Source of the DNA: a virus
Taxonomy: Duplodnaviria; Caudoviricetes
Direction: 5' to 3' (one strand)
DNA length: 60,520 nucleotides
Virus record (IMG/VR): IMGVR_UViG_3300001683_000034
Span: 1 to 60,520 of that record
The position numbers and the translations under genes were made by a program. Below, piece after piece: positions 3,308-24,601 of this stretch. Each line of letters opens with the position of its first letter. Positions within the stretch are counted from its first letter, which is position 1. The notes beneath the pieces are model-generated. The model had not been told where the DNA came from, did not search any database, and saw nothing but the letters and a program-made list of their open reading frames with translations.

Positions 3308-6300
3308 TAGATTTCACCGACTCTTTTAAGTAGAAGAAGTGGGTCACCTTGCTCAGTTGGGGCAGCCATCCATTCTCTGAACCAGTAGCCTAGCTCAGTC
3401 GAAAGGTCGGACCAGGCGTCGTTGTGCTCTAGGGCATCATACATATTTTCTAGCCCTGATGCGAATGGAGCTCCATTGTATCTTAGTAGATTTATCTTCG
3501 CCGGCAGATAGGCTGTACCAGCATTGAATGTATCATCAGCTCCCTTAGATAAAACACTTGTTTGAGACAACATAGGAGACATGAACTGGTCTACAATATC
3601 CCCTCCTCCTCTCCCGCCTATTCGCAAAACCATTGTTTGCCAGAATACTGCTCTTGCACCTGCAGAAAAACGCTGACCTAGTATCACGCTAGTTGCGGTT
3701 CCCGAACCACGTGCTACTGTTGTCCAGCTGTGCAGTGCTGTTACTCTACTGGCAGCGGTAGCCTTGGCTCCAGCTGCTAATACTGCAGGAGTTGATCGTA
3801 CCGCTTCCAGTACTCCAGGAAGAAATTTATTACCTGTGCCCTTACCTATGGCTATTCCGGCTGCTTTTATCGCAGAAAATGCATTACGTCCTCCTCCTGC
3901 AAATGGTATCAACGCACGCGTAGCCTGGAATGCACCAACCATTGTTCGAATTACTACATTTGCTGCAACTCCTGCAGTCATAACAATTCCACCTAGCATA
4001 GGTACAATCACGGATACTACAGTAAGGATATTCATGGCTTGCCCAAAAGCACGACCATTACCCACTGTATACCAGAATTTCTTCATCAAAGATCTTTCGT
4101 AGGTACCCAACGAACTATTCTCGGTAGATAATGCACAAGGAACTACCGTAGTTGTCCAGCCATTAACCGCGCTGAAATTCTGTATAACTCTTTCCGCCAT
4201 GACTACGCCATACATGTTATTCACATCATCGGCTAGATGTATGGCATCATACGGCTTCATATTCCTACCTATCATAATGAGACTACCGCGATACATTTTA
4301 GATAGCCCTTGAGCTATTCTAAATGTCATTGCACGCTTTGCTAAGTTCGGAGTTGTAGCGTTTATCTCTGTAAAAGTTTCAAGGATATCTTTTGGTGCGG
4401 GGTACATACCTCTATAATTCATCCCAGCTGAATCTGCGTGAGGCCACGAACCAAAGCCTTGATTCGAGGCAATACGGAATACACCCGCACTCCTATCTAT
4501 CCCGTTCTCTTCAATACCATAATTACTAAAACCCCAATTTCCAAAACCGGCTGTTTCATCGACTGTATCGATAGGAACTAGCAATCTAACAGCACTCCAC
4601 ATATCAGATTCTGTTGCAACTATATTATTTGCTATCAGGTCGTGAGTAGTACTTACTACGTGATGATCTCTAAATATTTTATAGTTATATGGTAGCGTAG
4701 TTCTTATGTCCTCATCCCCTGTCATCAATTCTCGGATTGTACTCTCAACTTCATCCGGATCTTCGCTGTCTAAAATTTCAGAAGCTAGCAGTAAAACTTG
4801 TTTGTACGGAATAATAAAATTTCTAACTAGTTCATAATAGTTATTATTATTGTAAGCTCTATATCGAGGAGAAAATACTGCATCTAGATCTACACCATGC
4901 TTTAGAGACCGTGGAGACGGAGAGAAGGGAGAACTAGCGCCGCCCGTAAATTTTTCGGTCCAAGTTTGCTGAGGATTGCTCCGAATATTATATATAAATG
5001 GCTCAAACCTGATTGTGGAGTTATGCCTCTCTCTCCCTCCCCCTAGGCCTCTCAAAAAGCGAAAGTTAACTGTATGATTATGATCCTGTACACCTGTAAC
5101 ACGGGTAGCAAGTTTAAATTTGGCGATATCACCCTTATTAGACATGATAAGATTGGGGGCCAATTCGAGCATATTTACGTCTAGGCCATTTATCTTTAAC
5201 TGAAAATAGCCCATGCCACGCTGACTCCACAAATTGTGGTAGCGTGTCTTATCATAATATGTATCGCCTCCACCTCTTTTATAAATTTCTCCCCCCGGAT
5301 CCTCATAGAACGTGTACATATCTTCCGGAGAACTTCCTGCTGAAGGATGACTCTCGCTATTAAGATAGAATTCACCAACCTGTTGTGAGAGTTTGGCAAG
5401 ATTATAATAATTATCCTGGATATCTTTCTCAGATAGATTTAAGAAAATACCCAGGAGATTGGCATGGACCTCATCTATATGATTCTTCTTATTTCCTGAA
5501 TCGCCTTTTACCCAAGGATTAAAATAAACATTATAAACTAAACGTTCTAAATCTTCATCTTCCCAATGTGTAAGGGATTTAGATTGCTCGGAGGCTATTG
5601 CTTCTCCGCCGGGAGTTCTAGCAGCGATTATTCGTTTATATCCTGTAGTCTCAACAAGCTCGTCTATATGTAGTAATTCTATTGTTTTTATTCTATTGTA
5701 TTGCCCTACTCTTCTTTTTATCGCGTTGCTTAAATTATTTATCTGTTGAAAAAGCATATTATATTTTGCATGCTTACCAAATTCTCGTTCTTGTTGCTTA
5801 TACTTTGATCCAAAATTATATTTAACTTGATATTGACTCTCTTCTTCCGTAGGAGGCCTAAACTGATATACGCCAGCTGGATCACCAATAAATAGAGTCG
5901 CATCCTGTTTATATGGAACTACCGTAACAATAAAATTAGGCATATACCTAGTGACTTCTCTGAGTCCGTCTATGACGGGACCATTAGTGACTAACCATTC
6001 ATTGGCGACATTGACGCTAGCATGGTTAGATGATGTATTATAAATATTCGTAGATAAATCAAATCCGCTAAAGCCAAAATAGTTTCTCTCTAAGCTTTCT
6101 GAAAGCCAACTGTATGTATCACCCCTCATCGTTTCCTGGAATCCTACCACTGTATCAAACTCACCACCAAGTGTTCTGCTTATATCATTATCGGTAGTTC
6201 CATAATCCCATGATTGAGTCCTTTCACTAAAAGGACCACCCTTTTTACGGGGGCTGAATTGAATAGGTTCACCAAGGTGAGACATGCCTTTTCTAAGTAG

Positions 6301-9300
6301 TTTTTTAGATGACGCTATATCTCCTAATAGTATATAATTTATAACATTTAAAAAAGAGCGTGTATGTGGATGCGATACGAATGGTATTAAATGCCGAAGA
6401 TTGCTAATCCAATCCTCTTCCAGAAAACCACCAAAATCATTTTGTAATTCACTTTGAAATCCTTGTGCTACAATTTCAACGATACTGCCGGCCTTAACTT
6501 CTGATATCTCTCCGGTAAATACAGTTTTTAAATGTTCTATATTATTTCCGTAGCCCATTTTTACCATGATATGTATGCCAGGCCTGAGCATAATCTTTCT
6601 AAGGAATTTTTCTCCTTCCTCATCTACGACTCTGTTGGTCTCAACTAAATTAGTACTAGACTCAGTTTTATCTTCTGATTCGGTAGTCTTATCTTCTGAA
6701 CTAGGGCTCTTCTTTATTTTTCTAGTGCTGACATGATCGGAGAAAGCCATGGTAGATAGTACGCCACCAAAGTTAGCTAGTTTCATAGTACATATATCAT
6801 TATCGTAGATATGTGAAGATATCGAGCATTCTACTACCTCACCGAAGCCATAGAAATCATCTTGGTGGTATGCCCTGTCTCGATCTTCTTCTATAAAATA
6901 AAGTCTTATCGTGGGGAAGCTTCTAAGAACAGACTCAGTGTGATCTGGGATATGGGCTATTTGCTGCCTATGTATAGCTTCTATCGCTTCTGGGTCATCC
7001 ATCGCTATGGACAAATCGGATACAGAGCTGTAGTACATTGGTTCTACTGCTTTACCATAATTGACTACTTTATATCCCCAAACAGATTCCTCATCATTTG
7101 CTGTTTTGACATCTGTTCTCTGGACGCCTCCTATAACAGTGCCCTTCTCAGTTAGGAATTCTATATGCAATGCATTGCCGTCTTTATACGCGTTATATAT
7201 ATTTTCTAAAGTCTTATCGTCCAGCTCTGATCCAAGCCCCTTTTGAAACGCGTCTCTCATGTTTTCTACCATAGCTTCAAAAGTAGTATTCCGTGCGGAA
7301 TACATCCCCGCATTTATCCCGGTCATTGCTTCATTCAAAGCTGCGCGCACTCTATCTCCGTTGAGCTGTAGAATTTCATTGTCATCTTTCTTACCAGCAG
7401 CTTCCAGTTTCGCTATAATAAAATCGTATAAACGTGTACTAGTCAATGGCAAAGTGATTGTTCTACCGCTGAGATATTCAGCTGCACCACTAGGTACATT
7501 GGCTTCTTCCGCCATACCTTGCTTATCTCTATGTCGAAAATAAAAGATATCCGGATCTATAAAATGTTCGGGACTTGCAGCAATTGCATCAGAGATATCA
7601 GCTATTGACATAGTTAGTAAATCTGCCATTTTTATATCTGTACCGTCGGGATTTCTATTAGGCAGCACACCTCTATCTCCACATTTTGGAGCAAATATTT
7701 TCATCAAACGATCTATGTTTGTTGACACAGGTGAATTATTAGGCACGATACCAACAGAAGTAGTAAAACTATCATTTATTTGTTTGATTGCTTTTGGATC
7801 ATTAAACAACTCACCATATGTCGGTAGATATAAATCAGGATATAGATTGATTATACTATTATTGAATGAGTTAACTTCTTTAGCTATTTCTTGTATCCGA
7901 GTTATATCTAGTCTTGCAGAAAGTGCTGAAGCTGAAGACTGGGTATCATCTCTTGCTCCATGCATAGACATATTACCAATATTTCTTGGAGAAGAAGAGT
8001 CGTAGTGTCTAGTAAGCTTAGATACTTCGCTTCCACTAGGCTCTGTAGTAATATCAAATATAAGCAAGTGGCGGTATTTTCCCGAGGCCAGGCTGCTTAA
8101 TATCTCAAACGATCTACTCATTTGTCCTTGGCCGACAAAGTCGTCTCCTTCAATCGCTCTAGTATGTATCCGCTCAAAGATACATTTTCCGATACTATCC
8201 CATAGATCCTTAGGCATTATCTTCCCTTGTTTATGGAATATATCTACAAGATTTTTAGCTTGGTATATGTCGAGATCATGCCCTTTAGATCGTATTCCAT
8301 ATACTGTGTTATCTATGCTGGGAGCAGCCGGGGCATAGGCGCTAAGAGGTATATCGATATGTACATCTGTATAGCCCGATTTAAGGGCATAGTACCTATT
8401 CTCAGTTGGATCTACTCCCCAACCAAGAATATTGTCTTGATTATAGCTTCCATCCTTTTCCTTGTATACTTCGGTAAATGGATTCTCGCTAGCCAGCCCA
8501 AAAAATATCCGGTGTAATTCAGGCGAATGAAATATTTTCTGAGTACTGTGCTTATTTTCTGTTTCAAAAATTGATCCAAAGTGAGAATGTAACTGCTGGC
8601 TACCGACGGGAGTAGCCAATAGAGTAGCAGCACTCCTAAAGAAACCTGCCCAAGTAGCCTCAAATTGACGATCCGATCTTATTGCACCCTTGGCAATTTG
8701 AAGTAAATCATTTTGAACTGCATCTCTGTTTACTGGATAGTCGACGAAAGCGGGAAAATCATGTGAAAGAACCCCTGTTGGTTTACTTAGTCTGTGATTC
8801 TCTCTTATCTGCACTATCTGATCGACTATCCCCATAAACACTGGACCATAGAGCACACCATGGACACCCCTACCAGGATTTAATATCGTTGGCAACGTAT
8901 CATCATCCGTGGCTAGTCCAACTACCCGCATAAGCTGTTCAAGTTTATGCACATGGTTTTGATCTATTGGACCATATTGAGTTCTTGAGTTAGACCATGG
9001 CTGGGCTGCTGCCCATATCTTATACAGATCATATAGGTAATCCCATATCATCTCTATGGACTTAAGGCTAATCACACCTTTCTCTAGCTGCAATTTTTCA
9101 TTTCCCATATCTTGATAATTCTCAATGAAATTAATTATTAACCTATATAAATCCGGAGAGTCCGGGTCGGACTCGATCGTTACAGATTGCGGAGTGACCC
9201 TAGATATGCCAAAAGAATTCACTAGTGGATTTTCTATGATACCAAAAGAATTAAACAAAAATTGTGATTTTTCAGCATCTACTATTCTTGCCTTCATAGC

Positions 9301-10833
9301 CATGAAGTCGCTTATTATCTTTTTATCTGTAACAAGAAATATCATCTGAAAGGAACTAGAATTTAATCCCATATACTGACAATTTGGAAACTTACTTCCC
9401 ATGAGCGGCATATCTATCGTCTTAGAATTAAATGCCCCAGATATCTTTTCTAAGATTATTGGCGCCTGAGTATCTGTTCTATCATATCTATCAGATGTAG
9501 TATCAAACAAGATTGGCCCACTAGCGATATCAAAGTAATACAATCTTATATCATTATTACTAACTTTAGAGAACTCTTTTGAATCATGCCCTCCAGGGTT
9601 TACCCCTCTGACTGCTACCTTGTCTAGCTCAAGCTGGCCTATTACTTTCTTTGATGCCAGTGATACATACCTCTTGCCCCAATAGCATTCCCATGGATTT
9701 AGTGTAGGATGCCCTCCAATGTCTTTATATGTTACAGAGCCAAAAGGAAATGCTGGCGAACTAACTATACCAAAAGTGAACCGTCCTAATATGGCTCCCG
9801 GCATATCATGCATAGTCTGCAGGCTAGCGCTTTTAAAGCAAACTGGAACTGGAAATTTAGCTATGCCGTTATCTTGCCCACCAGAATGAAACTCTTTAAG
9901 ACTAAAATCATCACCCAGTAAAGCATCTAAAGTTTGTCCACGTCCAATAATATGATCTAACGCTGCTTCTAATCCTAAATCTAATTCAGCAGATCCTCTA
10001 TTTAGGATACCTTCGAGAACTGCGGTATCACCTATCCCCATCGATTTGACGAAGCCTTGAATCCGTTCTTCTGGTGTACCATTTATCTTACCAAACTCTT
10101 CGGCTGCAAAGCTTTTTGAAATTGTTTTTACGAGCTCTGGGTAAGTATACGCAGACACAAATGCAGTACATAGGGCAGAAGAGTATATAGAATTTATTGG
10201 CATAAACTTAAACATATTATATAGATTTATAAAGCTGGGATAATCTTCTTCTGTAGATGAGAACACCTCGAAATTGGGAAATATAATATCTATTGAGATG
10301 GTATGTTTTGAACTATGATTTGGGATAACCCCGACAGATTTTGACCTTACTGTTGGTACCGGTTGATTGAGCAAATGCTCTTGTATATTAATAGAGCTAG
10401 GAATTATTCTAGGAAAACCTGTACCATTATCTGTCTCTGGAATCTTATAGAATCCAATTTGAGAGACATCGTCGCTAGATGAAGTAATGTCATCAAGGAA
10501 TCCTTGGGTTTGCTGTCTAATCCCTTTTAATACCTTTTGTCCCTGCTCAGGCAAAGTGCTATCGCCGTCAGATGTGAGGTTTGATACATAATTTAATAGA
10601 ATTTCCGTATAAGCTCTCCTGCCATCGGCTACTACGGCATAGCCAGCAGCGGGATACTTATCGTCGAATTCTCCCTTATCAATTCTACGGTGAAGTCCAC
10701 CTATATAATCGCCCATACTCATCAGTCCAACAGCTCCTGCTTGCTGAAGTTTACCGGCATAGACGTGCTCCATGAATACCGACCTATCGATGTCCATATC
10801 GCTTAAGACTTGAGTTATTCCTACTACTGCCAT
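3307..10833 (-). CDS. Giant baseplate hub-like/tail-associated protein
   Basis: 2508 aa. Hub (gp27/VgrG-like) segments LRPGIHIMVKMGYGNN..VFTGEISEV..IVEIVAQG and MYRGSLIMIG..MKPYDAIHL..NGWTTTVVP. Hydrophobic Gly/Ala-rich C-terminus. Lies between the tape-measure region and baseplate genes. Confidence 0.6.
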   Translation of the reverse strand: MAVVGITQVLSDMDIDRSVFMEHVYAGKLQQAGAVGLMSMGDYIGGLHRRIDKGEFDDKYPAAGYAVVADGRRAYTEILLNYVSNLTSDGDSTLPEQGQKVLKGIRQQTQGFLDDITSSSDDVSQIGFYKIPETDNGTGFPRIIPSSINIQEHLLNQPVPTVRSKSVGVIPNHSSKHTISIDIIFPNFEVFSSTEEDYPSFINLYNMFKFMPINSIYSSALCTAFVSAYTYPELVKTISKSFAAEEFGKINGTPEERIQGFVKSMGIGDTAVLEGILNRGSAELDLGLEAALDHIIGRGQTLDALLGDDFSLKEFHSGGQDNGIAKFPVPVCFKSASLQTMHDMPGAILGRFTFGIVSSPAFPFGSVTYKDIGGHPTLNPWECYWGKRYVSLASKKVIGQLELDKVAVRGVNPGGHDSKEFSKVSNNDIRLYYFDIASGPILFDTTSDRYDRTDTQAPIILEKISGAFNSKTIDMPLMGSKFPNCQYMGLNSSSFQMIFLVTDKKIISDFMAMKARIVDAEKSQFLFNSFGIIENPLVNSFGISRVTPQSVTIESDPDSPDLYRLIINFIENYQDMGNEKLQLEKGVISLKSIEMIWDYLYDLYKIWAAAQPWSNSRTQYGPIDQNHVHKLEQLMRVVGLATDDDTLPTILNPGRGVHGVLYGPVFMGIVDQIVQIRENHRLSKPTGVLSHDFPAFVDYPVNRDAVQNDLLQIAKGAIRSDRQFEATWAGFFRSAATLLATPVGSQQLHSHFGSIFETENKHSTQKIFHSPELHRIFFGLASENPFTEVYKEKDGSYNQDNILGWGVDPTENRYYALKSGYTDVHIDIPLSAYAPAAPSIDNTVYGIRSKGHDLDIYQAKNLVDIFHKQGKIMPKDLWDSIGKCIFERIHTRAIEGDDFVGQGQMSRSFEILSSLASGKYRHLLIFDITTEPSGSEVSKLTRHYDSSSPRNIGNMSMHGARDDTQSSASALSARLDITRIQEIAKEVNSFNNSIINLYPDLYLPTYGELFNDPKAIKQINDSFTTSVGIVPNNSPVSTNIDRLMKIFAPKCGDRGVLPNRNPDGTDIKMADLLTMSIADISDAIAASPEHFIDPDIFYFRHRDKQGMAEEANVPSGAAEYLSGRTITLPLTSTRLYDFIIAKLEAAGKKDDNEILQLNGDRVRAALNEAMTGINAGMYSARNTTFEAMVENMRDAFQKGLGSELDDKTLENIYNAYKDGNALHIEFLTEKGTVIGGVQRTDVKTANDEESVWGYKVVNYGKAVEPMYYSSVSDLSIAMDDPEAIEAIHRQQIAHIPDHTESVLRSFPTIRLYFIEEDRDRAYHQDDFYGFGEVVECSISSHIYDNDICTMKLANFGGVLSTMAFSDHVSTRKIKKSPSSEDKTTESEDKTESSTNLVETNRVVDEEGEKFLRKIMLRPGIHIMVKMGYGNNIEHLKTVFTGEISEVKAGSIVEIVAQGFQSELQNDFGGFLEEDWISNLRHLIPFVSHPHTRSFLNVINYILLGDIASSKKLLRKGMSHLGEPIQFSPRKKGGPFSERTQSWDYGTTDNDISRTLGGEFDTVVGFQETMRGDTYSWLSESLERNYFGFSGFDLSTNIYNTSSNHASVNVANEWLVTNGPVIDGLREVTRYMPNFIVTVVPYKQDATLFIGDPAGVYQFRPPTEEESQYQVKYNFGSKYKQQEREFGKHAKYNMLFQQINNLSNAIKRRVGQYNRIKTIELLHIDELVETTGYKRIIAARTPGGEAIASEQSKSLTHWEDEDLERLVYNVYFNPWVKGDSGNKKNHIDEVHANLLGIFLNLSEKDIQDNYYNLAKLSQQVGEFYLNSESHPSAGSSPEDMYTFYEDPGGEIYKRGGGDTYYDKTRYHNLWSQRGMGYFQLKINGLDVNMLELAPNLIMSNKGDIAKFKLATRVTGVQDHNHTVNFRFLRGLGGGRERHNSTIRFEPFIYNIRSNPQQTWTEKFTGGASSPFSPSPRSLKHGVDLDAVFSPRYRAYNNNNYYELVRNFIIPYKQVLLLASEILDSEDPDEVESTIRELMTGDEDIRTTLPYNYKIFRDHHVVSTTHDLIANNIVATESDMWSAVRLLVPIDTVDETAGFGNWGFSNYGIEENGIDRSAGVFRIASNQGFGSWPHADSAGMNYRGMYPAPKDILETFTEINATTPNLAKRAMTFRIAQGLSKMYRGSLIMIGRNMKPYDAIHLADDVNNMYGVVMAERVIQNFSAVNGWTTTVVPCALSTENSSLGTYERSLMKKFWYTVGNGRAFGQAMNILTVVSVIVPMLGGIVMTAGVAANVVIRTMVGAFQATRALIPFAGGGRNAFSAIKAAGIAIGKGTGNKFLPGVLEAVRSTPAVLAAGAKATAASRVTALHSWTTVARGSGTATSVILGQRFSAGARAVFWQTMVLRIGGRGGGDIVDQFMSPMLSQTSVLSKGADDTFNAGTAYLPAKINLLRYNGAPFASGLENMYDALEHNDAWSDLSTELGYWFREWMAAPTEQGDPLLLLKRVGEI

Positions 10834-10834
10834 T

Positions 10835-13800
10835 TTAAAATACCGAATTCATTCTACTATCGAGATGTTGAGAAATTTCTGTACGAGACATTGTATCATT
10901 CAAGTCAGATCTAAATGAACCTTGAATATTAGGTATATAGCCGTTATGTAGAGCATGCTGATTAGTCATACCCCTGAAATCTGGAGGGCTGCCCATCTTG
11001 CCTGATACATTCAATGAGCTTCTCGCTCCCTGAGACCTAGCTACACGGGCTATACTGGTATTAGGCATAGCATCTGCATGAAAAGTAGGATCATGTGGGG
11101 TAGACATCATTGGAGGTGGAGGCATCGCGTTAGCCGCACTATAGCCAGTAGCAGGCACATTACCTGGAGAGAACCTGTTCATAGCAGATCTGATCGCTTC
11201 GACTCCCGCCAATCCTCCAACTATGGCTGCAGCAGGCTTAAAGTATTTAGTTTGACTGATTTTGGCAAAGAACTCGCCGCTGATTAAAGCATTCCTATAG
11301 CTGCTATTAGGGACATGGGGGCTACTAACTCCACGAGTGTTGGCCATTGATCCAGCACGTTGGTCCTGTACATCAAGTAGCTTTCTACGTTGATTATCTT
11401 CTTGGAGCGAAAGCATGACATCCTGTATGCTACTACGTATAATCTGGTCTGAATCTCCCCCGCCAATAGCTTGGATGTCGGCCATAGCTACAGCACCAGG
11501 AGCTTCTGCGCCCATTATCCTATCCGTCATAAAACCCTGTCGTACTATACCCATATCTCTGAGTACTGACTCAAAGGGCATTCCAAGCGCCGTACTTTTA
11601 CCTTGACCAAAACCTACTTTTAGCTCTTCACTCATCATCTCTACGAATATCATTCTTTTTGCTAAAAGTTTTGCTTGCTGCTCAGCGTGATCTTTCGTGC
11701 CACCGGCTAGCTGATGTAGGATGCTTAAAGTTTGGGGCTCAGTTTCGCTAAGAGCCCTGAGTGTATTCTTGTCATCATTAATCATTTGTGCTGCTCTTAG
11801 TAGATTACTTGCAACATCATCTACTAGTTGACGAGATTTAGCTGTACCATCGCCAACTATTCCAAATAGCTGATCTGAAAACAGAGAACTTTCTGCAGCC
11901 ATACTCGCTCTTGCTTCCACCCCGGCTGCCTTTAAGCTATCTAGAATAACATCAGCTGGAGTCGCAATGCCGCCGTGTGCGACCTTCTTGAGATGCATAT
12001 ATTTTATTAGGTTCCTTGCATCTGTATAATGATATGTGGCAGAACGTCCGCCCCTAGATCCCGGAGACCCGCCCATGATTCCTGCAGCTTTGTCCAAGAA
12101 TCCTGATACTCTCTCAGCATTCGTATCGCCTAGTCTTGATATCAGGTTTTCTCTGAGTATACTCTTGCCCTCGCCACTAGCCTGTACGTCTAAGATCTGT
12201 CCAATCATATGATCTACATAAGACCTGCCTCTGAAATGGGCTTCTATAATAGGAGTAGAGTGTTTAGGCCCGACTATATCTATGAGGGATCTAAACGTTT
12301 CTCCCTTAACAGTACGGTCACGAAATTGATTTGTATCCTCCAGGTCTGATATTAATGAAGTAACGTCACCTATATCGTTGAATGTACCCTTTATCCTCTT
12401 TGCTACTTCTTCTGGCGAAGATTTTAATTTATTGAGAATACCTTCCATCATCTCTACTTGACCAGAGTGTATCCCCTCCATGGTCGAATCAGTCATGCTC
12501 TTTAATCTGAAGATAGATACACTGTCTTTGTCGAGGTCCCCTTCCATGCCATACTGAATCATTGCAGTATTCAAGAAAGCGACTCCGCTAAAGTTAAATC
12601 CTTCAGTTATAGACTTACTAGCAAGCTGAGTATCTTTTAGCAGCTTTACCTTGAGCGCAAGCATCTGGCGACCACCAGCAGCCGGCTCTCTCACAGCCGT
12701 TACATACAGCTTATTGTTTCTTGCCTGAGCAATCATTTTGTCTATATTGGAATATTTATCACCAAAAGCCATAGACCTTAAGGCTTCTTCGGTCACACCA
12801 ACTTCAAATTTGCCTACTTGCGCATGAGTTTGAAGTCTTAGCCTACCTCCTAATTTTAATCCTTTAGGATCTACAGTAGATGAGTAGAAGAGGCCTTGTT
12901 TAGATAGGGTGTTCCCGGCCATCACGCCATATAACTTGTCTAACCTCCCCTCTATCTTAGCAGTATCTGTAACAAGACGTTCGCCTTCTGCACTCTTTAG
13001 TCTTTCAACATCTTGCAATATATCTAGATACATTGACTGTGCTTCTTTGCCGGCGACCCTTCCTTCCTTCATGTTAGCAATAGCATCTATATGCAGCTTA
13101 TCGAAGTTACGATTCCCACCGGGAACTCTTAAGAAACCTGCTTCTTTTGTAAAGCCCATAGCCTTCGCAGAAGGAATAATCATTGGACCATGCTTACCCT
13201 TTACGAGTATGGCTTGATCGGATATTTTAACTACCCCTGTCTTGGGATCTCTTCTCCCAAGAATTGTGTCACCTATTGCTTCGAGAGATGCCTTACCATC
13301 TACGCTATGTTGTTTCTGTGAGAGTAGCTGTTCAATTGAGGTTTTCGCTTCTTTGAATTTTCCTACAGATAAAGTAGAATCTCGGCCAACTTCAATTCCT
13401 TTTGCTGCTCTTTTTAATACAGCTAATTTGCCTATTTTCTCATCGACAAGGGCCTTCTCTATTTTTGAGAACCCTGCAGCATCTTTTTTGAAATAATCAC
13501 GTTGCTGATACATAAGGCTAAGATCATGGTTCTTCTTGAATATACCAGGATGACTGTCGATAAGACTGTCAGCTAGATCTCTCTTCATGTCTAATATTCT
13601 GCGAACACCAAATTCTTTACCGCTGACATCTTTTCTTCCTCTGGCGAAATCTATTGATTCGCCCAACATAGAAATATCTCTTAGTTTTATATTAACCGCA
13701 TCACGACCAAGTTTGACGAGAGGTTCTTCTCCTCTGATGGCTAACTCAGCTGCTATGCTTTTGATCATCCATTGTTGATCACCAACAAGTGCTGGGAGCC

Positions 13801-16800
13801 CTGCAGCTGTTCTTCTTCCTACACCAAGGCGCCTCATAATCTCAGATGTTGATCCTCCTGAGTCTCTGGCGGCCGCTTCTATCGCTACCTGCTCTTGCTT
13901 AGTGGCAGCCTGGTATCCTGGAAGTTCAGCAAGTACTTTAGATAAACTGACTTTAGTAAAAGACTCATCGAGAAGTGCTTGTAGGCCTACTGTCTCTTTT
14001 GCTACAGATTTAAGGCGTGCCATAAAGTCTACATCTGACACGCGTTCAAATGCATCACCAAGACCAGCAAATTGAACAATAGACCTATCACCCACTTTTG
14101 CTATTGTAGCTTCACCACCCATCGCAGACGTAAGTTTTTGTACATTAGATCTGGACAGATCTCCGCCGGCTTCTTCACTAATTAACTGGCCGAGATTCCT
14201 AAGAAGAGTAACATTGAAACCGAATGACTGGCGTCCTTCCTTACCTGCCTCTAACACTCCTCTCGATCGTTCAAGACCGAGATCACCTAATACAAGTTCT
14301 AAGCCGCTACGGCTAGGATCGATCTTGGCTAAACCAAATATACGTTCCTTTGCACCTTTGCTTATTACTTGTCCGACACTTACTCTTTGGGAATCTAGTA
14401 TATACCCTCGATCAACCATGACACGAGCAGGATCTTTTCCGGCGATTCTTTCCGCCATCGTCAGTTCTAATTCCCCAGATCTTGCTATAAGTCTTACGCC
14501 TGTGATAAACGTTTTGCTAGGATCTAATCCACGCTTCTTGGCAATGTTAAGCATGTCATGTGTATGTCGTAAATCTTGCTTAAGGACTTCATCTGCATGT
14601 TTCGCAGATTCACCTAATATTACATGCCCTGTTACCGGTTCTACGTTAAATGCGGCTTCGGCATATGCAGCAGTCCTGCGTCTCTTTAGTCCCTCTTGAG
14701 CATAATGCTCTTTAAAGACTTCTAGCTGAATTTCCTGTCCTGGCTTAAATGTGATTCGTCTACTGCCGCGTTCCAGCATATCTTGGTGCGCTAGAATTGC
14801 ATTATGCAGATCGCTTCTAAGGAAGCCTTGAAAGTTTAATTGCCCAGCAGTAGTGCCGGTTCTAGCAGCGTCTAAGGACCTCAGATTTATTTTATGAGTA
14901 AGTGTGTGTCTAGATAATCCAGACAATGGATCAACATCCATTTGTCTGACAAGATCGCCAGACATGACTACGCCAGAATCTCCAAAGATAAGCCTATTTA
15001 GCTCTTTGTCAAGAAATTGTAGTCCTACAGTTTTTCTACCAAATGCGACATTAGTGTCTTTAAATGCCTTTCTTCCTGGGTCTAGACTAGAGACCTCCTG
15101 TCTTAATGCAGTATTCGCTGCTCCGCTATAACCCATAATCCTTGCTACGGTGGTAGGTAGGTCATCTACTGACCTTATCTGTACGGCGTCTCTGGATAGC
15201 TGAAATTGTTGACCTTTTATAAAGGGTGTTTGCCCCGGCAAAATTGATAAGTCTTTAACGCTCCCTATAGTCGCTTTCAGGTATACTCTCTGTTTTGCTC
15301 TATCCTTGTCTAAAATATTTGGTCGGAAAACTGATTCCCCACTTTGGGGACCCCAGGCAAAGTGGAGATTCTTAAACTTTTTAGCGAATATACTGTTAGG
15401 CTCTTCCAACTCCAGTCTCTCAAGATGCTTCATGACAGCATTTTGGCTCTCTACCATCTCTTTACGAAGCCGGTCTGCACCGAATACTTGGCCGCGGTTC
15501 CTTTCATCAAAACCCGTGTGCCATGCTTTTCTCGCATTATATTCATCTAATAACTTATTATATAATGTGCTATTCGCATCTACTTCCATCAATAGTTGCT
15601 GAGAAGATCCTAGAAGATGCCTACCTAATTTAGGCCTGCCGGCATAATTAACTGGATCAGCTAAACCAGAAGTATTTTTAACTCTTTCTTCCCACATTAA
15701 CGATTCATCGAATAACGAATCTTGAGCACCCAATACATTATTAATAGTCTCCCTAAGCTTGCCTTGACTAATATCGTGATGGTTCTCTAATGATTTGAGT
15801 ACCTCTCTGTATATAACTCGAGAAGCCGTCTCTGGCTCTGATAGTTTGCCTGTATCTCTTCCTATCTTACCTATAAGAGATGGGACACTGTATGCACTGC
15901 CGCCCTTAAACATATATTCAGCAGCATATTCTCCTCCTGTTGCTGCGGCAGATGGATTTATAGCAGTTGAGAATAGGGGAATAGAGACATTCTCTCTGCC
16001 TATCGATCCACCTGTAGCGATTAATTCATTACCTCTGAAAAATAGATTGGCCTTAGACTCTTCTATCCTTTTAAGGAGTGGCTCTAACCCGCCTGTAGCA
16101 AACCCCCTATTCTTTAAGAAATCTGTTGCAGATGCAGCTGTTGGGAGTTGCTCTGATCTAACCCTCAGTGTAGCACCTGTGTACATCCCTATGTGTGTAG
16201 GCCTAGACTCTATCTTCTCGACTAGCTTAAGTTCACGAGCAGTCAATTCTGTGGGCCTAAGAGAATTCTTCCATCCCTCTATCACTCCAAGATCAGATTT
16301 AGTACTTATCGCACGGCCGCCGCCTTTGCTACCGCCGAATACAATGTCCTCAAATGTTTCAGCCCCTGATGCAAATACTCTTGTCCTTGCAGATAGCTTC
16401 TCCTCATATTCACGTAAGGCAGGATTGAATGAGCTGCCCTTGAATACGGTCCTCTCAAATTTTTTCGCTCGAGATATCCAAGCTTCCTCAGTCACGTTGT
16501 TGCCTAGCAGATCTTTATGTTTATGGTATATATTCGCTTCGATTAATTGCCGTAACGCCAGTCTTGTATCTACTGGCCTAGCTTGTCCTTTTCTGCTGCC
16601 ACTTGTGTACTCACCTGGGTGTAACGTTTTACTTAGTCGCTTTTTCCAATAGTCACCCAAGTTTTCCGGCATTAGCTCTTCTAGATGAACTGTTCTACCG
16701 ACCTGTCCGGAAATTGGGCGCAATGGGGATGCGCCTTTGAATGGTTCCGCTAGTTGTAGCTTAAAATCGCTGCGACTTCCACTCTCAAGAGCGAGCTCCA

Positions 16801-17101
16801 CCCCTAGCACACTTCGCGCCTGCTTGGCCAGTTCACCACCGTATCTGTCCCTTCGCTTCGGTACGATCCGCTCACGGTGGAATTTTCTGGTGAGGAGGGC
16901 GTCCCTCTCAAGGGCTCGTATAGGTCGATACATCTTCTCTTGAACAAGACTTTTTCGCGCTGTCCTGTCAGCCTTACTTTTCTCCACTGCTTGGTCAAGT
17001 CGACTTTTGTGGCCTAAAAAGTCAGCTAGTTTAGATCTTCCACCCGTCTCCTTAAGTAACCTACGTAACTGATCAGAAACATTTTCATCTGGTCTTGCCA
17101 T
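10835..17101 (-). CDS. Large virion-associated protein with diverged beta-like and beta'-like two-barrel RNA polymerase motifs (candidate single-chain virion RNAP)
   Basis: Ordered motifs: GRKTVGLQFL..IFGDSGVVMS (cf. beta GQNMRVAFM..FEDSILVS); LELVLGDLGL (cf. VDIVLNPLGV); SKQGLF..KGLKLGGR..VGKFEVGVT (cf. beta' GKQGRF..KRVDYSGR..LHQCGLP); VTAVREP (cf. VLLNRQP); MEGDLDKD at 12524-12538 (cf. NADFDGD). Confidence 0.6.
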   Translation of the reverse strand: MARPDENVSDQLRRLLKETGGRSKLADFLGHKSRLDQAVEKSKADRTARKSLVQEKMYRPIRALERDALLTRKFHRERIVPKRRDRYGGELAKQARSVLGVELALESGSRSDFKLQLAEPFKGASPLRPISGQVGRTVHLEELMPENLGDYWKKRLSKTLHPGEYTSGSRKGQARPVDTRLALRQLIEANIYHKHKDLLGNNVTEEAWISRAKKFERTVFKGSSFNPALREYEEKLSARTRVFASGAETFEDIVFGGSKGGGRAISTKSDLGVIEGWKNSLRPTELTARELKLVEKIESRPTHIGMYTGATLRVRSEQLPTAASATDFLKNRGFATGGLEPLLKRIEESKANLFFRGNELIATGGSIGRENVSIPLFSTAINPSAAATGGEYAAEYMFKGGSAYSVPSLIGKIGRDTGKLSEPETASRVIYREVLKSLENHHDISQGKLRETINNVLGAQDSLFDESLMWEERVKNTSGLADPVNYAGRPKLGRHLLGSSQQLLMEVDANSTLYNKLLDEYNARKAWHTGFDERNRGQVFGADRLRKEMVESQNAVMKHLERLELEEPNSIFAKKFKNLHFAWGPQSGESVFRPNILDKDRAKQRVYLKATIGSVKDLSILPGQTPFIKGQQFQLSRDAVQIRSVDDLPTTVARIMGYSGAANTALRQEVSSLDPGRKAFKDTNVAFGRKTVGLQFLDKELNRLIFGDSGVVMSGDLVRQMDVDPLSGLSRHTLTHKINLRSLDAARTGTTAGQLNFQGFLRSDLHNAILAHQDMLERGSRRITFKPGQEIQLEVFKEHYAQEGLKRRRTAAYAEAAFNVEPVTGHVILGESAKHADEVLKQDLRHTHDMLNIAKKRGLDPSKTFITGVRLIARSGELELTMAERIAGKDPARVMVDRGYILDSQRVSVGQVISKGAKERIFGLAKIDPSRSGLELVLGDLGLERSRGVLEAGKEGRQSFGFNVTLLRNLGQLISEEAGGDLSRSNVQKLTSAMGGEATIAKVGDRSIVQFAGLGDAFERVSDVDFMARLKSVAKETVGLQALLDESFTKVSLSKVLAELPGYQAATKQEQVAIEAAARDSGGSTSEIMRRLGVGRRTAAGLPALVGDQQWMIKSIAAELAIRGEEPLVKLGRDAVNIKLRDISMLGESIDFARGRKDVSGKEFGVRRILDMKRDLADSLIDSHPGIFKKNHDLSLMYQQRDYFKKDAAGFSKIEKALVDEKIGKLAVLKRAAKGIEVGRDSTLSVGKFKEAKTSIEQLLSQKQHSVDGKASLEAIGDTILGRRDPKTGVVKISDQAILVKGKHGPMIIPSAKAMGFTKEAGFLRVPGGNRNFDKLHIDAIANMKEGRVAGKEAQSMYLDILQDVERLKSAEGERLVTDTAKIEGRLDKLYGVMAGNTLSKQGLFYSSTVDPKGLKLGGRLRLQTHAQVGKFEVGVTEEALRSMAFGDKYSNIDKMIAQARNNKLYVTAVREPAAGGRQMLALKVKLLKDTQLASKSITEGFNFSGVAFLNTAMIQYGMEGDLDKDSVSIFRLKSMTDSTMEGIHSGQVEMMEGILNKLKSSPEEVAKRIKGTFNDIGDVTSLISDLEDTNQFRDRTVKGETFRSLIDIVGPKHSTPIIEAHFRGRSYVDHMIGQILDVQASGEGKSILRENLISRLGDTNAERVSGFLDKAAGIMGGSPGSRGGRSATYHYTDARNLIKYMHLKKVAHGGIATPADVILDSLKAAGVEARASMAAESSLFSDQLFGIVGDGTAKSRQLVDDVASNLLRAAQMINDDKNTLRALSETEPQTLSILHQLAGGTKDHAEQQAKLLAKRMIFVEMMSEELKVGFGQGKSTALGMPFESVLRDMGIVRQGFMTDRIMGAEAPGAVAMADIQAIGGGDSDQIIRSSIQDVMLSLQEDNQRRKLLDVQDQRAGSMANTRGVSSPHVPNSSYRNALISGEFFAKISQTKYFKPAAAIVGGLAGVEAIRSAMNRFSPGNVPATGYSAANAMPPPPMMSTPHDPTFHADAMPNTSIARVARSQGARSSLNVSGKMGSPPDFRGMTNQHALHNGYIPNIQGSFRSDLNDTMSRTEISQHLDSRMNSVF

Positions 17102-17102
17102 T

Positions 17103-20100
17103 TTATTGACTCCTCAAAATATCTGTAGCTACTGCAAAGAAATTCTCTAGACTGCTTCTAGAAGACATATCATAGTTAACAATATTCTCTAATCCTTGAC
17201 CAAGACTTTCATCAATATCATAATCCGTAATACCGGACAGCATCAGCTCAGCTTCTAGTTGCTGTCTGGCTGCCCCATTTAGCCCTGATCTATTGTAAAA
17301 ATTAAACACACTTAAATCTGGTGAAGGAAATTCTGTCCTTAATTTGGCTGCAACATTCCCAAAAACACCAGATCTATGTAAATCACTACCTACAGATCCC
17401 CAAACAGAATCCATAGTTTTGACCCGAACAGCGTCCATCGCTACATCTGGATGGAACCCTGCCCATGTGGGATCTGGCATGCCGTGGCTTGCAAAATACT
17501 CTGCAGCTCTGGCATCAGGAGATTTTCTTATATTACTGTAATCAAATGCATTGTCTCCTTGCTTGGCCCAAGCAGCCTGATACACAGGCTTTACATATTC
17601 AGGCACGTACTCTAGTATTTGTCTTCGCTTACCAGAAGAAGCGTCCATCGAGCTCATGAAAAGCTGCTTCTCTCTGGTAGGTAAAGCGATTAACGCACTT
17701 CTCATAAACTGCTTTGCGCCTAATGAATAATCTAATGAGGCTACAGTCCTTCCCTTTAAGTCCATAAAGTGACTAGCCAGATCTTGCAGTCCTTCGCCTT
17801 GGGCCTTTTTCTCCAGCCGTCGCATTTTTATATATTCTAAGCTATCAAAATACTCATCCATTCTTCTTCTCTCGGTGACATATCCAGGGACGTAGCCACC
17901 AGTAAGCTTACCGGTACTTATCCCTCTCATAGCTGAGGAAGCCCCGAAATACATCGCTCCAGCAGTAGACATAACTACTTTCGCGATGGGATTTGCACCG
18001 ATAAGAGTACCAGTTATAAAGCCGCCCATAGTTGCTGTAAATGGGTCCGTGGCTTTTAGCTGCTCTGATATTGGTCTAATCATAGTGGTATATGGTTTGG
18101 CCCAATCGTACTCGTCCGTATCATATACTTCTCTTTTTAAATATCCCTCAAGCTCATCTCTTACCGGGAGCATCTTATTCGCAAGCATAGGACCTAAGAT
18201 TGGAACAGTTATACCAATTCTGGACACTATATCGTGACTAAATACCTCCCATGCAGAACCAATAGCCTGCTCGGGTAAGGTATAATAGGTTCTTATGCCT
18301 TCTTGATTCTTTTCATTCTCCGCTTGCTCGACTAGGCTAGTCAGCTGTGGATCAATGGAATTAAACTTTCTAGAAAAGGTTTGGTATCTCTCCAGCCTTT
18401 GCTTAACTCCTTCATGAGTTTTTGCAATCTTATCTGTCCAATACTCATCTACTGTTCCAGACTTGAGTAGCGAGTCTACAAGTATTTTATAATGCTTATA
18501 GGACTCAGAATGTGGTGCTACGTCTGCCAGTACCATTAATCTGTCGACTGCATCATAGACTCCCGGAGAGCCACTATGGAGCCTAAACGCAATCTCTCTA
18601 GCAGCGCCCGGGAGTCTTAATTCCCCATGGGGCATCTTTGAATATGGGTCACCCGTGCTAAAGTCTATATGATAATTTGTGTCCCCTGGGAAAACCCCCA
18701 TAGCCGTATTACCGGTAAAGCTAGATCTAGATCCTGGCAACCATGATGGCATAGTATTGGGAATAGTGTTAGTCGCTTGTCTCTGAGCTTTGAGATAGTC
18801 TACCATCACAAATCTACGAAGAAGCTCGGTATGGCCCATCATGCCACCGACACTCTCATCATAGAATGATCTAGTAATAGAATTCATAAACCCAGGATCA
18901 GCTAACTGAGGGCTAGTCGGCGTAGTAGCTTTAAATGGCATATCCCATAAAGCAAACTTATAGATACCAGTCATTTCGCTCATATGGGCTAGCCCAGTAG
19001 ATAGCATGGGCTTCTTTACTGCTGACCCAAGTTCTGATCTTGCTGGATATGGGTTCATGCCCATCTCTAGAACAGATTCGCCCGGCGTTTGATATGATCT
19101 TAATCCAGGAGAGTTACCCCCAGGTACGCCCATAGTTCCTATAGTCCTATTCGCTAACTCTTCTATACCGAACGCAGTAGGATATGGTCTATCGAATCTA
19201 TGTTTTTGTGCTAAAAACTCAGCTCCTTGAGGATCAAACATCGATCCTATTATAGGAGTATGTTCTATAAGAGAACCTACAAATGGCAGGTTTGTAATTG
19301 GACTAAGAACATTACCAACTAACTCAGGTATTCTGAACAAGTTACTTGGAGTTGGTAGAAAACTTACGTTTCTAAAATATTCTGCTTGTGACCCATATAG
19401 TGTGTCAGTGTACTTATACTCGGATCGCATTCTCGCGAACATGCCAGGAGCGAAGTAGTTTATCCTGCCTCCACCGAATGGCTGCTTACCTAGCATCCAG
19501 TATCTACCTGATCTAATAGGAACTTGTTGCTCACCAGATAGTATATCTATGGTCTCTTTTGGAGTTTCTGTTAGCCCGGGGAATGGCATTTCTCCAACGA
19601 AAGCTGAAACACCTGCAGCTATAAGTAAATTTCCTTTTGTTGGAGCTGTCTTTAGGGCAATAATGAATGGAGCTATTGTTCTAACAAAATCTGAAGCCGA
19701 GCTTTCTACAGAGCCCGGCATCAAATCTTCCATATATCTCGCGGCAGGAGATGCTCCCGTAAATTCCCTTAGGAATTGTGCTGATATCTTAGCTGTGCCG
19801 TACGCATCCATTAGCAGATTGGATGCCTTATACCCACCAGTAGGAACTCCTGTTAGATAATCAGCATACTTGACACCCTCTAGGGCGAGCGCACCTCCTG
19901 CTGCCATCCCAAATATTTTTGCTGTGTTGCCTGCAAAACCGTATCTTCCGGGAGTAGGTCTGAACCCTATTCCCATAGTTGCTCCGATAAGATCGTTAAG
20001 TCTAGTTGTCATAAAGTTAGCAGTGTCTAAAAGCCTGCCACCTAAATCTGACTTATATGCAAATGACTCCATCGGGAGCCATGTCTTATCTCCAACTTCG

Positions 20101-22448: not shown

Positions 22449-22451
22449 ATC

Positions 22452-24590: not shown

Positions 24591-24601
24591 AGTTAAAATT
24601 A

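What the first reader, a model, noticed from the sequence alone, without database searches (positions are those of the whole stretch)
10835..17101. Candidate single-chain beta-beta' RNA polymerase with a DLDKD active-site loop, encoded in the tail module
Seen: five or six motifs in the order expected for a beta-then-beta' fusion. Beta-like: GRKTVGLQFL..FGDSGVVMS (about aa 708) and LELVLGDLGL. Beta'-like: SKQGLF..KGLKLGGRLRL..VGKFEVGVT, VTAVREP and FLNTAMIQYGMEGDLDKDSVSIF (aa 1522-1526, nt 12524-12538). Known: cellular RNAPs use NADFDGD, crAss-like virion RNAPs use a DFDID variant, and some Thermus phages carry an RNAP-like domain in a very large virion protein. Inference: this is a highly diverged two-barrel polymerase sitting between the tape-measure-like and hub genes, so it may be packaged and injected to transcribe early genes. 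All three Asp are kept, with G replaced by K. I cannot place the two beta-barrel lysines (GDK..NKG), so it could be a variant enzyme or an inactive exapted fold.
Basis: partly seen in the sequence, partly recalled or inferred. Interest (0 to 1): 0.92.

Follow-up and report, generated by a model that had tools for sequence, protein, structure and literature searches.

The report
Tail-module giant protein hiding RNA polymerase
A 2088-residue gene among the contractile-tail genes of an uncultured phage is predicted to contain the catalytic barrel of a cell-type RNA polymerase with an unusual Asp-x-Asp-Lys-Asp metal loop, so the phage probably carries its own transcription enzyme, though neither activity nor packaging has been shown.

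Summary

The protein belongs to a small, unnamed metagenomic family of about 20 members (32-61% identity). G-D-x-D-K-D, R-[ED]-P and F-[GA]-D are kept in 17 of 17 aligned members.

No sequence method links it to any polymerase: Pfam, PHROGs, PDB sequences and hhalign or HMMER against E. coli, jumbo-phage, crAss and P23-45 RNAPs all failed.

The fold evidence is positive for the beta'-like half:
- An AlphaFold2 model of aa 1200-1720 gives the strand and helix order of the beta' catalytic double-psi barrel, with the Asp loop in the canonical place.
- In Foldseek, all 49 listed PDB rows are RNA polymerase entries (best: phage AR9 non-virion RNAP, E 5e-5).
- Most top viral hits are DNA-directed RNAPs, plus one tail-protein-fused hit.

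The beta-like barrel is not shown. A complex prediction packs aa 680-1160 against the Asp-loop barrel (0.72 against 0.00 for the best control), but no fold or profile test identifies that region as beta.

The gene sits between sheath/tube and baseplate genes, tightly coupled to two other giant genes. This synteny is conserved in two relatives.

Verdict: a new family of tail-module two-barrel RNAP, probably virion-delivered. It is a new variant of a kind known from P23-45 and crAss-like phages. This scan has noted similar candidates before on other, unrelated DNA.

The parts
10835..17101 (-). Whole gene, 2088 aa plus stop; giant tail-module protein of a small unnamed metagenomic family
16202..17101 (-). 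aa 1-300: variable, gap-rich, basic N-terminal region (identity 0.13-0.21 per 50-aa window)
   Evidence: weak phrog_12107 match at aa 9-61 (E 0.0039)
Its fold identity is not established. aa 680-1160 are predicted to pack against the Asp-loop barrel.
   Evidence: (no RNAP hit)
14975..14986 (-). F-G-D-S loop (aa 706-709; D708 invariant), inside the predicted interface with the beta'-like module
11942..13504 (-). aa 1200-1720: beta'-like module, the modelled stretch whose Foldseek hits are RNA polymerases
12497..12904 (-). aa 1400-1535: predicted double-psi beta-barrel A (strands 1415-1425, 1433-1437, 1466-1472, 1481-1488, 1507-1510, 1527-1533)
   Evidence: (fragment residue + 1199)
12683..12691 (-). 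R-E-P (aa 1471-1473), R-[ED]-P in 17 of 17 homologues
12524..12541 (-). G-D-L-D-K-D (aa 1521-1526), putative metal-binding loop; G-D-x-D-K-D in 17 of 17
10838..11314 (-). aa 1930-2088: the most conserved part (about 0.7 identity), Pro-rich with a short Gly/Ala hydrophobic patch; function unknown, possibly virion incorporation. It is found only in this family.
17103..21770 (-). Upstream giant gene (1555 aa), translationally coupled, no family match; it stands in the usual tape-measure position after two small ORFs
   Evidence: synteny
3307..10833 (-). Downstream giant gene (2508 aa), coupled; phrog_20474 segment at aa 1297-1466 and a hydrophobic segment at aa 2262-2301

Best explanation
The gene encodes a giant virion-module protein whose conserved core (about aa 680-1720) is a very diverged single-chain two-barrel RNA polymerase. 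Shown by prediction: aa 1400-1535 fold as the beta'-type double-psi barrel. The invariant loop G-D-x-D-K-D sits where cellular enzymes have NADFDGD, and R-E-P sits where they have NRAPTLH. Helices precede the barrel, as in beta' N-terminal pieces of jumbo-phage enzymes. Inferred: the three Asp bind the catalytic Mg2+. A second, beta-like domain upstream (aa ~680-1160, with the invariant F-G-D-S loop) closes the active site against this barrel. The enzyme is built into the particle with the two neighbouring giant proteins and leaves through the contractile tail with the DNA. It then transcribes the first phage genes independently of the host polymerase, as P23-45 gp96, crAss-like gp66 and jumbo-phage virion RNAPs do. 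The invariant Lys at the fourth loop position replaces a Gly that one paper calls universal in previously studied RNAPs, with Ile in gp66. It implies a changed loop geometry or an extra contact to phosphate. The highly conserved C-terminal 160 aa would serve incorporation or ejection.
For: 1. Family conservation. There are 15 proteins at E<=0.001 in 5.8 billion clusters and 10 in 1.84 billion representatives, all the same family. G-D-x-D-K-D, R-[ED]-P and F-[GA]-D are each kept in 17 of 17. The core aa 1301-1700 is among the best conserved stretches.
2. AlphaFold2 model of aa 1200-1720 (19 rows, mean pLDDT 63, blocks over the barrel 58-85). Its order of strands and helices is b, b, a, a, b, b, (a, a), b, a, Asp loop, b. 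That this is the double-psi barrel A order is my knowledge of RNAP structures.
3. Foldseek against PDB. There are 5 matches at E<=0.001, and all 49 listed rows are RNA polymerase entries. The best are AR9 non-virion RNAP 7s00_d (E 5.4e-5, prob 1.00), plastid, Thermus and archaeal enzymes. That the chain letters are those of beta'/Rpb1/A' is my knowledge; the output does not state it.
4. Foldseek against BFVD. There are 15 matches at E<=0.001. The named ones are DNA-directed RNAPs of phages and large DNA viruses, plus 'Minor tail protein [Siphoviridae sp. ctnpt50]' (E 1.5e-4). One hit aligns 127 columns at rmsd 4.2 A.
5. Language-model look-alikes of aa 1280-1720. The two best named clusters are phage PF05183 RdRP (score 0.85, a lead only).
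6. Complex prediction of aa 680-1160 with aa 1215-1700. The score is 0.72 (runs 0.72, 0.75, 0.71) and the best of 3 controls is 0.00. This mark was reached by 58 of 80 solved complexes and 2 of 110 mismatched pairs. The runs agree in at least 64% of contacts, and the partner pLDDT is at least 69. The interface holds 703-710 (F-G-D-S) on one side and 1407-1428, 1468-1482 and 1523-1527 (Asp loop) on the other. My own alignment was used, so the counts hold only roughly.
7. Context. The gene lies between sheath/tube and baseplate genes, with TAAAATG coupling to both giant neighbours. The same gene order is found in L003 and L006.
8. Precedent. P23-45 gp96 is a tail-gene-encoded virion two-barrel RNAP found through its DxDxD motif alone (PMC10770324, sections 6, 11 and 12 read).
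Against: No sequence method sees a polymerase.
- Pfam: 0 relevant families for P0001, and none for the 15 members even at E<=10.
- PF05183 and PF00623 on the six frames of the window: 0 matches at E<=10.
- PDB sequences: none.
- hhalign against gp66, E. coli RpoB and RpoC, gammaproteobacterial profiles and gp96: probabilities at or below about 1%.
- A global barrel alignment scored 7.3 against 7.5 for the reversed template.
- Real RNAPs did not separate from reversed decoys.

The beta-like barrel therefore has no fold support, and the two basic residues expected from it are not located. TM-scores of the positive hits are low (about 0.2), and pLDDT after aa 1540 is below 50, so a bridge helix and trigger loop are not shown. 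The two chains of the complex job are parts of one polypeptide, so packing is expected whatever the function, and a pass can reflect the model's memory of solved RNAPs. Lys in place of the loop Gly might be incompatible with catalysis. Packaging is inferred from gene order only. The record is about 31% of a genome.
Confidence: 0.6

Rival explanations
1. An exapted, catalytically dead polymerase fold. The protein is a structural or ejection component of the tail (lumen filler, tape-measure partner or membrane conduit). It descends from an RNAP but no longer makes RNA.
For: The universal loop Gly is replaced by Lys. The beta lysines are not found. The most conserved part is the non-polymerase C-terminus. 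The gene lies among tail genes next to two other giants without enzymatic signatures.
Against: Three Asp, the Lys, R-x-P and F-x-D are invariant across 17 members down to 32% identity. The barrel region is as conserved as the C-terminus is in most windows. Dead enzymes usually lose such residues.
Confidence: 0.15
2. An active two-barrel enzyme with another job: a primase-like or DNA-synthesising polymerase (as archaeal PolD is a two-barrel DNA polymerase), an RNA-dependent enzyme, or a non-packaged late or middle RNAP.
For: The two-barrel superfamily includes DNA polymerases and RNA-dependent enzymes (PMC10770324 section 11; PMC7824862 passages). The language-model look-alikes carry the RdRP family PF05183. 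Nothing here tests template or product.
Against: The listed Foldseek rows are all DNA-dependent RNAP entries and none is PolD. The gene is co-oriented and coupled with late structural genes. This suits a packaged protein better than an early replication enzyme.
Confidence: 0.12
3. Not a polymerase fold at all. The model and its Foldseek hits are artefacts of a shallow alignment, and the acidic loop binds Ca2+ or Mg2+ for a structural reason.
For: There are only 19 alignment rows, mean pLDDT is 63, pTM is 0.39 and TM-scores are about 0.2. All sequence tests are negative.
Against: All 49 listed PDB rows are RNAP entries, at probabilities mostly 0.8-1.0. An independent viral library gives the same family. 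An unrelated language-model search also points to a two-barrel family. The secondary-structure order puts the invariant Asp loop exactly at the canonical site.
Confidence: 0.08

Closest known systems
Thermus phage P23-45 gp96 (virion two-barrel RNAP fused to the tape measure protein; Chaban et al. 2024, PMC10770324)
   Same: A giant protein encoded in the tail gene block that hides a two-barrel RNAP undetectable by sequence apart from the DxDxD loop. It is proposed to leave through the tail and transcribe the first genes. A BFVD 'minor tail protein' of an uncultured siphovirus is among the fold hits (E 1.5e-4); that it is a gp96 relative is my guess and was not tested.
   Different: gp96 is the tape measure itself (5002 aa, with metallopeptidase and membrane domains) of a non-contractile-tailed phage, and it has the canonical DFDGD. 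Here the protein is a separate 2088-aa gene in a contractile-tailed phage with DxDKD. hhalign finds no similarity (probability 0.2%). The best fold hits here are multisubunit-type enzymes, not gp96.
crAss-like phage phi14:2 gp66 (virion RNAP, PDB 6VR4; bioRxiv 10.1101/2020.03.07.982082)
   Same: A virion protein of similar size (2180 aa) in a block of giant structural genes, with a non-Gly residue at loop position 4 (DFDID). Pfam is blank for it too.
   Different: It belongs to a podovirus and is most similar to QDE-1. There is no profile similarity (probability 0.1%). crAss proteins appear only as weak fold hits (probability 0.11-0.14).
Jumbo-phage multisubunit RNAPs (AR9 non-virion RNAP beta' N-terminal piece, PDB 7S00; PhiKZ non-virion RNAP, 7OGP)
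   Same: They give the best structural match (7s00_d, E 5.4e-5; 7ogp_A, E 2.9e-3). Helices precede the catalytic barrel. The enzymes are phage-encoded and independent of the host.
   Different: Those enzymes are split into four or five polypeptides and are recognised by Pfam or tblastn. This one would be a single fused chain, invisible to the same tests.
Salmonella phage Arash gp206 (1525 aa)
   Same: A natural phage fusion of a beta-type barrel (PF00562, 3.5e-59) with the beta' catalytic barrel in one frame.
   Different: It is readily recognised by Pfam and has 34% identity to E. coli beta'. Its loop is DYDGD. It is not in a tail module.
Cellular RNAP beta' (Pfam PF00623 RNA_pol_Rpb1_2)
   Same: The predicted fold and the order of K-Q-G, G-R, R-x-P and DxDxD are shared, with a similar overall span: 334 to 458 in E. 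coli against 1401 to 1521 here.
   Different: The HMM finds nothing at E<=10. The loop Gly is replaced by Lys, and the insert before the loop is short.

Membership tests
Two-barrel (double-psi beta-barrel) RNA polymerase superfamily | Barrel A carrying a DxDxD metal-binding triad | tested here: met
   The predicted fold has the triad loop between the last helix and the last strand. Foldseek gives RNAP entries in PDB and BFVD. The triad is kept in 17 of 17 members. This is a prediction, not a solved structure.
Two-barrel (double-psi beta-barrel) RNA polymerase superfamily | Barrel B supplying two basic residues to the active site | tested here: inconclusive
   There is no RNAP hit for the model of aa 600-1750, profile tests are at noise level, and the basic pair is not located. 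aa 680-1160 are predicted to pack on the Asp-loop barrel (0.72 against 0.00).
Two-barrel (double-psi beta-barrel) RNA polymerase superfamily | Bridge helix and trigger loop after barrel A | tested here: inconclusive
   Helices are predicted at aa 1538-1720 but with pLDDT mostly below 50. The conserved blocks at 1614-1640 and 1686-1706 are unassigned.
Two-barrel (double-psi beta-barrel) RNA polymerase superfamily | Template-dependent RNA synthesis | not testable with these tools
   Needs biochemistry.
Cellular/jumbo-phage beta' (PF00623) and beta (PF00562) | Match to the curated HMMs | tested here: not met
   PF00623 on the six frames of the window gives 0 matches at E<=10, while 14 of 14 control genomes match. 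Pfam scans of 15 members give no RNAP family. PF00562 was not run on the window itself.
YonO / QDE-1-type RdRP family (PF05183) | Match to the HMM | tested here: not met
   0 matches at E<=10. There is only a language-model resemblance at 0.85.
crAss-like virion RNAP (gp66 family) | Detectable homology to gp66 and its relatives | tested here: not met
   hhalign probability is 0.1%. tblastn of P0001 against 50,697 phage records gives no match.
P23-45-type tape-measure-fused virion RNAP | RNAP fused to a tape measure with peptidase and membrane domains; homology to gp96 | tested here: not met
   hhalign probability is 0.2%. No peptidase family is found, and no hydrophobic segment passes the 1.6 threshold in P0001.
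Virion-delivered RNAP (functional class) | Presence in particles and early, rifampicin-resistant transcription | not testable with these tools
   Only gene position among the tail genes is available.

The most novel reading that the evidence does not exclude
This is a previously undescribed lineage of single-chain beta-beta' RNA polymerase. It is closer in fold to the multisubunit cellular and jumbo-phage enzymes than to the QDE-1/YonO/crAss clade. It works with an Asp-x-Asp-Lys-Asp loop, with Lys where previously studied RNAPs have Gly, and lacks the canonical pair of beta lysines. A contractile-tailed phage of about 200 kb delivers it through the tail together with two other giant proteins.
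Probability: 0.35. Interest if true: 0.8.

Novelty: new variant of a known kind. Interest (0 to 1): 0.62.

Why it matters
Virion-delivered two-barrel RNA polymerases have been shown by experiment in only a few phage groups: jumbo PhiKZ/AR9-type phages, crAss-like phages and Thermus P23-45. This family would add a contractile-tailed lineage in which the enzyme is a separate giant gene in the tape-measure slot. That would support the idea that injecting a private polymerase is a widespread strategy hidden by extreme sequence divergence.

The invariant Lys at the fourth position of the metal loop is a natural test of how much the most conserved motif of transcription can change. If the core is indeed a fused beta-beta' of the multisubunit type, it bears on the history of fusion and splitting of RNAP subunits.

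In practice, it shows that 'hypothetical' giants in tail modules need fold-level annotation.

Tried and rejected
Family libraries gave nothing relevant.
- Pfam and PHROGs on P0001 gave only weak HTH and 'repressor' matches.
- Pfam on all 15 members at E<=10 gave no family shared by more than 2 members.
- PDB sequence searches with the protein and with the profile gave only chance ORM hits.

tblastn of P0001 against INPHARED phages gave no match.

hhalign of the family against gp66, E. coli RpoC and RpoB, profiles of 72 RpoC and 81 RpoB gammaproteobacterial sequences, gp96 residues 1-1200 and single jumbo-phage beta sequences all stayed at noise level. The by-eye pairing K-Q-G...G-R...G-L-P did come up as third hit, but at P = 0.36.

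A global barrel alignment scored 7.3. Forty column-shuffled templates gave a mean of 2.9 (sd 2.2, max 8.5), and the reversed template gave 7.5, so the score is not significant. hmmsearch of the family HMM against 10 RNAP sequences and their 10 reversed decoys showed no separation.

The first structure job (aa 600-1750) was too long and of too low confidence, and its Foldseek search gave ribosomal-protein noise. The Atlas search of aa 640-1180 gave no usable hit.

I considered that the beta-rich stretch aa 1226-1330 could be barrel B with a short connector, as in gp96. The complex job favours a contribution from aa 703-710 and 892-914.

I looked for a DEDD exonuclease segment, as reported in other notes of this scan. 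No Asp is invariant in aa 333-652, so none is claimed.

The three giants share no similarity with each other. The C-terminal domain occurs only in fragments of this same family. The family has no relative in 185,579 species genomes, one in IMG/VR and three in JGI metagenome contigs.

No paper with DFDKD, DLDKD, DxDKD or DTDKD concerns a polymerase (36 papers hold a term, 15 were listed and their titles and abstract starts seen). Supplementary Data 3 of PMC10770324, which holds alignments of 23 RNAP families, could not be opened, so I cannot exclude that this family is among them.

Full report
WHAT IS THERE. The window is a linear virus record of 60,520 bases, rated about 31% complete. Nearly all its long ORFs lie on the minus strand. 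ORF 10835-17101 (-) encodes 2088 aa (P0001). Two other giant ORFs flank it: 17103-21770 (1555 aa) and 3307-10833 (2508 aa). Both junctions read TAAAATG, and a GAGGAG site precedes the start.

CONTEXT. In the direction of transcription, the upstream genes are:
- a large terminase (47183-49240);
- a weak portal match (43091-45265);
- a major capsid protein (38999-40465);
- a tail sheath (25326-26876; phrog_16991, 7e-42);
- two paralogous small proteins in the tube position.
Downstream lie baseplate proteins: 662-1618 matches phrog_6 (9e-13) and 1618-2046 gives weak baseplate matches. The three giants therefore fill the slot where contractile-tailed phages keep the tape measure and hub genes. No family match tells which giant, if any, is the tape measure. 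The 2508-aa protein has a phrog_20474 segment and one strong hydrophobic segment. P0001 and the 1555-aa protein have none above the threshold used. The order sheath, tube, four small ORFs, about 1555 aa, about 1930-1950 aa, giant is repeated in L003 and L006, whose central protein is only 32% identical.

THE FAMILY. A word-indexed search of 5.8 billion clusters gave 15 proteins at E<=0.001. One is the window's own; the others are 32-53% identical and 1865-2105 aa long, and none carries a meaningful name. A full HMMER scan of 1.84 billion representatives with aa 600-1750 gave 10 proteins, all of this family, three of them fragments. There is no match in 50,697 phage records and none in genomes of 185,579 prokaryote species. 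IMG/VR holds one locus and the JGI metagenome contigs hold three.

Conservation varies along the chain. It is low in aa 1-300, about 0.5-0.63 in aa 1301-1700 (lower in 1551-1600), and highest (about 0.7) in the last 140 aa. In a 17-sequence alignment, G-D-[FLTH]-D-K-D, R-[ED]-P and F-[GA]-D are each present in 17 of 17. The commonest loop is GDFDKD (8 of 17), that is, the canonical DFDGD with Gly changed to Lys. In the 19-row alignment, D1522, D1524, K1525, D1526, R1471 and P1473 remain invariant.

SEQUENCE-LEVEL TESTS ARE ALL NEGATIVE. Pfam, PHROGs and PDB sequences give nothing relevant. The Pfam models PF05183 and PF00623, run on all six frames of the window, find nothing at E<=10, whereas PF00623 rings in 14 of 14 control genomes.

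I built references from:
- phi14:2 gp66;
- E. coli rpoB and rpoC;
- 81 RpoB and 72 RpoC gammaproteobacterial sequences;
- phage enzymes of RHph_TM39, EP_H11, Arash, YerA41 and AR9;
- P23-45 gp96.
hhalign and HMMER never rose above reversed or shuffled controls.

This failure carries limited weight. The crAss RNAP family is equally blank in Pfam. The P23-45 paper states that many two-barrel families share no significant similarity beyond the DxDxD region (PMC10770324, section 12, read).

FOLD-LEVEL TESTS. A first AlphaFold2 job on aa 600-1750 (18 rows) had mean pLDDT 54 and below 50 around the Asp loop. Its Foldseek search of the PDB gave 0 hits at E<=0.001 and no polymerase among the listed rows.

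A second job on aa 1200-1720 (19 rows) reached mean pLDDT 63, with blocks of 58-85 over aa 1410-1540. It predicts:
- strands at 1415-1425 and 1433-1437;
- helices at 1438-1444 and 1453-1461;
- strands at 1466-1472 (ending in R-E-P) and 1481-1488;
- a short insert;
- a strand at 1507-1510 and a helix at 1512-1518;
- the G-D-L-D-K-D loop, then a strand at 1527-1533.
By my knowledge of RNAP structures, this is the order of elements of the beta' catalytic double-psi barrel, with the acidic loop in the canonical place.

Foldseek of this model against the PDB gave 5 hits at E<=0.001. All 49 listed rows are RNA polymerase entries: AR9 and PhiKZ non-virion RNAPs, and bacterial, plastid, archaeal and eukaryotic Pol I, II and III enzymes. 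Against BFVD there were 15 hits at E<=0.001. The named ones are DNA-directed RNAPs of uncultured myoviruses, nudiviruses and giant viruses, plus a 'minor tail protein' of an uncultured siphovirus. crAss proteins appear only weakly. An independent language-model search of aa 1280-1720 put two phage clusters of the two-barrel family PF05183 first, at a score (0.85) that counts only as a lead.

I conclude that the beta'-like half is real at the level that prediction can give. Its nearest structural neighbours are the multisubunit-type enzymes.

THE SECOND BARREL.

| Step in E. coli beta | Spacing | Step in P0001 | Spacing |
|---|---|---|---|
| F-E-D-S (812) to G-D-K (1063) | 251 | F-G-D-S (706) to G-D-L (939) | 233 |
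| On to S-R-M-N-I-G-Q (1105) | 42 | On to L-R-N-L-G-Q (967) | 28 |
| On to Q-Q-P-L (1256) | 151 | On to E-E-P-L (1125) | 158 |

This is a comparison by eye.

With no fold jobs left, I used the one complex job on aa 680-1160 against aa 1215-1700. The score was 0.72 (runs 0.72, 0.75, 0.71) and the best of 3 controls was 0.00. That mark was reached by 58 of 80 solved complexes and 2 of 110 mismatched pairs. The runs agree in at least 64% of contacts, and the partner pLDDT is at least 69. My own alignment was used, so the counts hold only roughly.

Both pieces belong to one chain, so packing as such proves little, and a pass may reflect the model's memory of solved polymerases. The informative part is which residues meet. 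On one side these are 703-710 (the invariant F-G-D-S loop), 892-914 and 1128-1153. On the other they are 1407-1428, 1468-1482 (R-E-P) and 1523-1527 (the Asp loop). Conserved residues of two domains converging on the acidic loop is what a two-barrel active site looks like, but the fold of the upstream domain remains unshown. An alternative placement of barrel B at aa 1226-1330, with a short helical connector as in gp96, cannot be excluded.

MECHANISM. Shown: the ORF, its family, its invariant motifs, its position and its synteny. Predicted: a beta'-type barrel with a DxDKD loop, packed against an upstream conserved domain. Inferred: Mg2+-dependent RNA synthesis; assembly into the particle with the neighbouring giants; exit through the contracted tail; transcription of the first genes.

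The inference rests on analogy with two cases. P23-45 gp96 is a tape-measure-fused virion RNAP found through its DxDxD alone (PMC10770324, sections 6, 11 and 12 read). crAss-like gp66 is a 2180-aa virion protein with a DFDID loop (bioRxiv 10.1101/2020.03.07.982082, passages read). The gp66 paper states that all previously studied RNAPs have Gly at the fourth loop position. An invariant Lys there is therefore the most unusual chemical feature of this family. A full-text search for the motif found no polymerase paper.

RIVALS. The rivals considered are a dead, exapted fold used as a structural or ejection protein; an active two-barrel enzyme with another product or a non-packaged role; and a modelling artefact. 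The strict conservation of the acidic loop and its partners argues against the first. The uniform RNAP hits from two libraries, plus an unrelated language-model method, argue against the third. Nothing here tests the second beyond the nature of the hits.

COMPARISON AND NOVELTY. The protein works like the known virion two-barrel RNAPs but fails every sequence-based membership test for their families (gp66, gp96, PF00623, PF05183). A natural beta-beta' fusion does exist in phages: Salmonella phage Arash gp206 carries PF00562 and the beta' barrel in one 1525-aa frame. Pfam sees it plainly, and it is not a tail-module gene. I file the finding as a new variant of a known kind.

Notes of this scan describe at least eight other tail-module two-barrel candidates in uncultured contractile-tailed phages of about 160-220 kb. 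None shares sequence words with this protein. Those notes are unchecked and are not used as evidence, but they suggest the theme is recurrent.

Prior description of this family, and the content of the rest of the genome, therefore remain open.

Noticed in passing
window 3307-21770: Three consecutive giant genes (1555, 2088 and 2508 aa) are joined by TAAAATG junctions. They share no similarity with each other. The same trio is found in L003 and L006.
   Followed up: partly
window 3307-10833: The 2508-aa protein has a phrog_20474 ('endolysin') segment at aa 1297-1466 (1.7e-23) and a strong hydrophobic segment at aa 2262-2301. It may be the real tape measure or a tail lysin.
   Followed up: partly
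window 23727-25326: Two adjacent paralogous proteins (223 and 287 aa) right after the sheath gene both match phrog_9206. That family is labelled 'major head protein', but by position these look like tail tube proteins.
   Followed up: no
window 21774-22931; L003 3861-5000; L006 4146-5285: The two small ORFs before the 1555-aa gene (the chaperone position) are in the same frame, separated by a single TAA in a conserved context, in all three loci. This is probably just a GTG restart, but no slippery frameshift site of the usual G/GT kind was looked for.
   Followed up: partly
window 51776-56326: A 1516-aa ORF near the packaging genes has no Pfam family at E<=0.001. Another note on this window reads it as a nuclease fusion.
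   Followed up: no
window 57368-59341: A ribonucleotide reductase, with barrel, alpha and class II insertion domains by Pfam.
   Followed up: no
window 36960-38333: A 457-aa protein with two Big_5 Ig-like domains (6e-25), between the capsid and lysis-like genes.
   Followed up: no
window 16919-17077 and 13805-13897: P0001 has two weak DNA-binding-type matches: phrog_12107 'transcriptional repressor' at aa 9-61 (E 0.0039) and HTH_23/HTH_8 at aa 1069-1099 (E 0.095 and 0.4).
   Followed up: no
L090 125-4702 (Salmonella phage Arash gp206): It is annotated 'RNA polymerase subunit beta', but one 1525-aa frame holds both the beta barrel (PF00562) and the beta' catalytic barrel with a DYDGD loop. It is a natural beta-beta' N-terminal fusion.
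   Followed up: partly
whole window: The record is rated 31% complete, which would put the full genome near 195 kb. No terminal repeat is present.
   Followed up: partly
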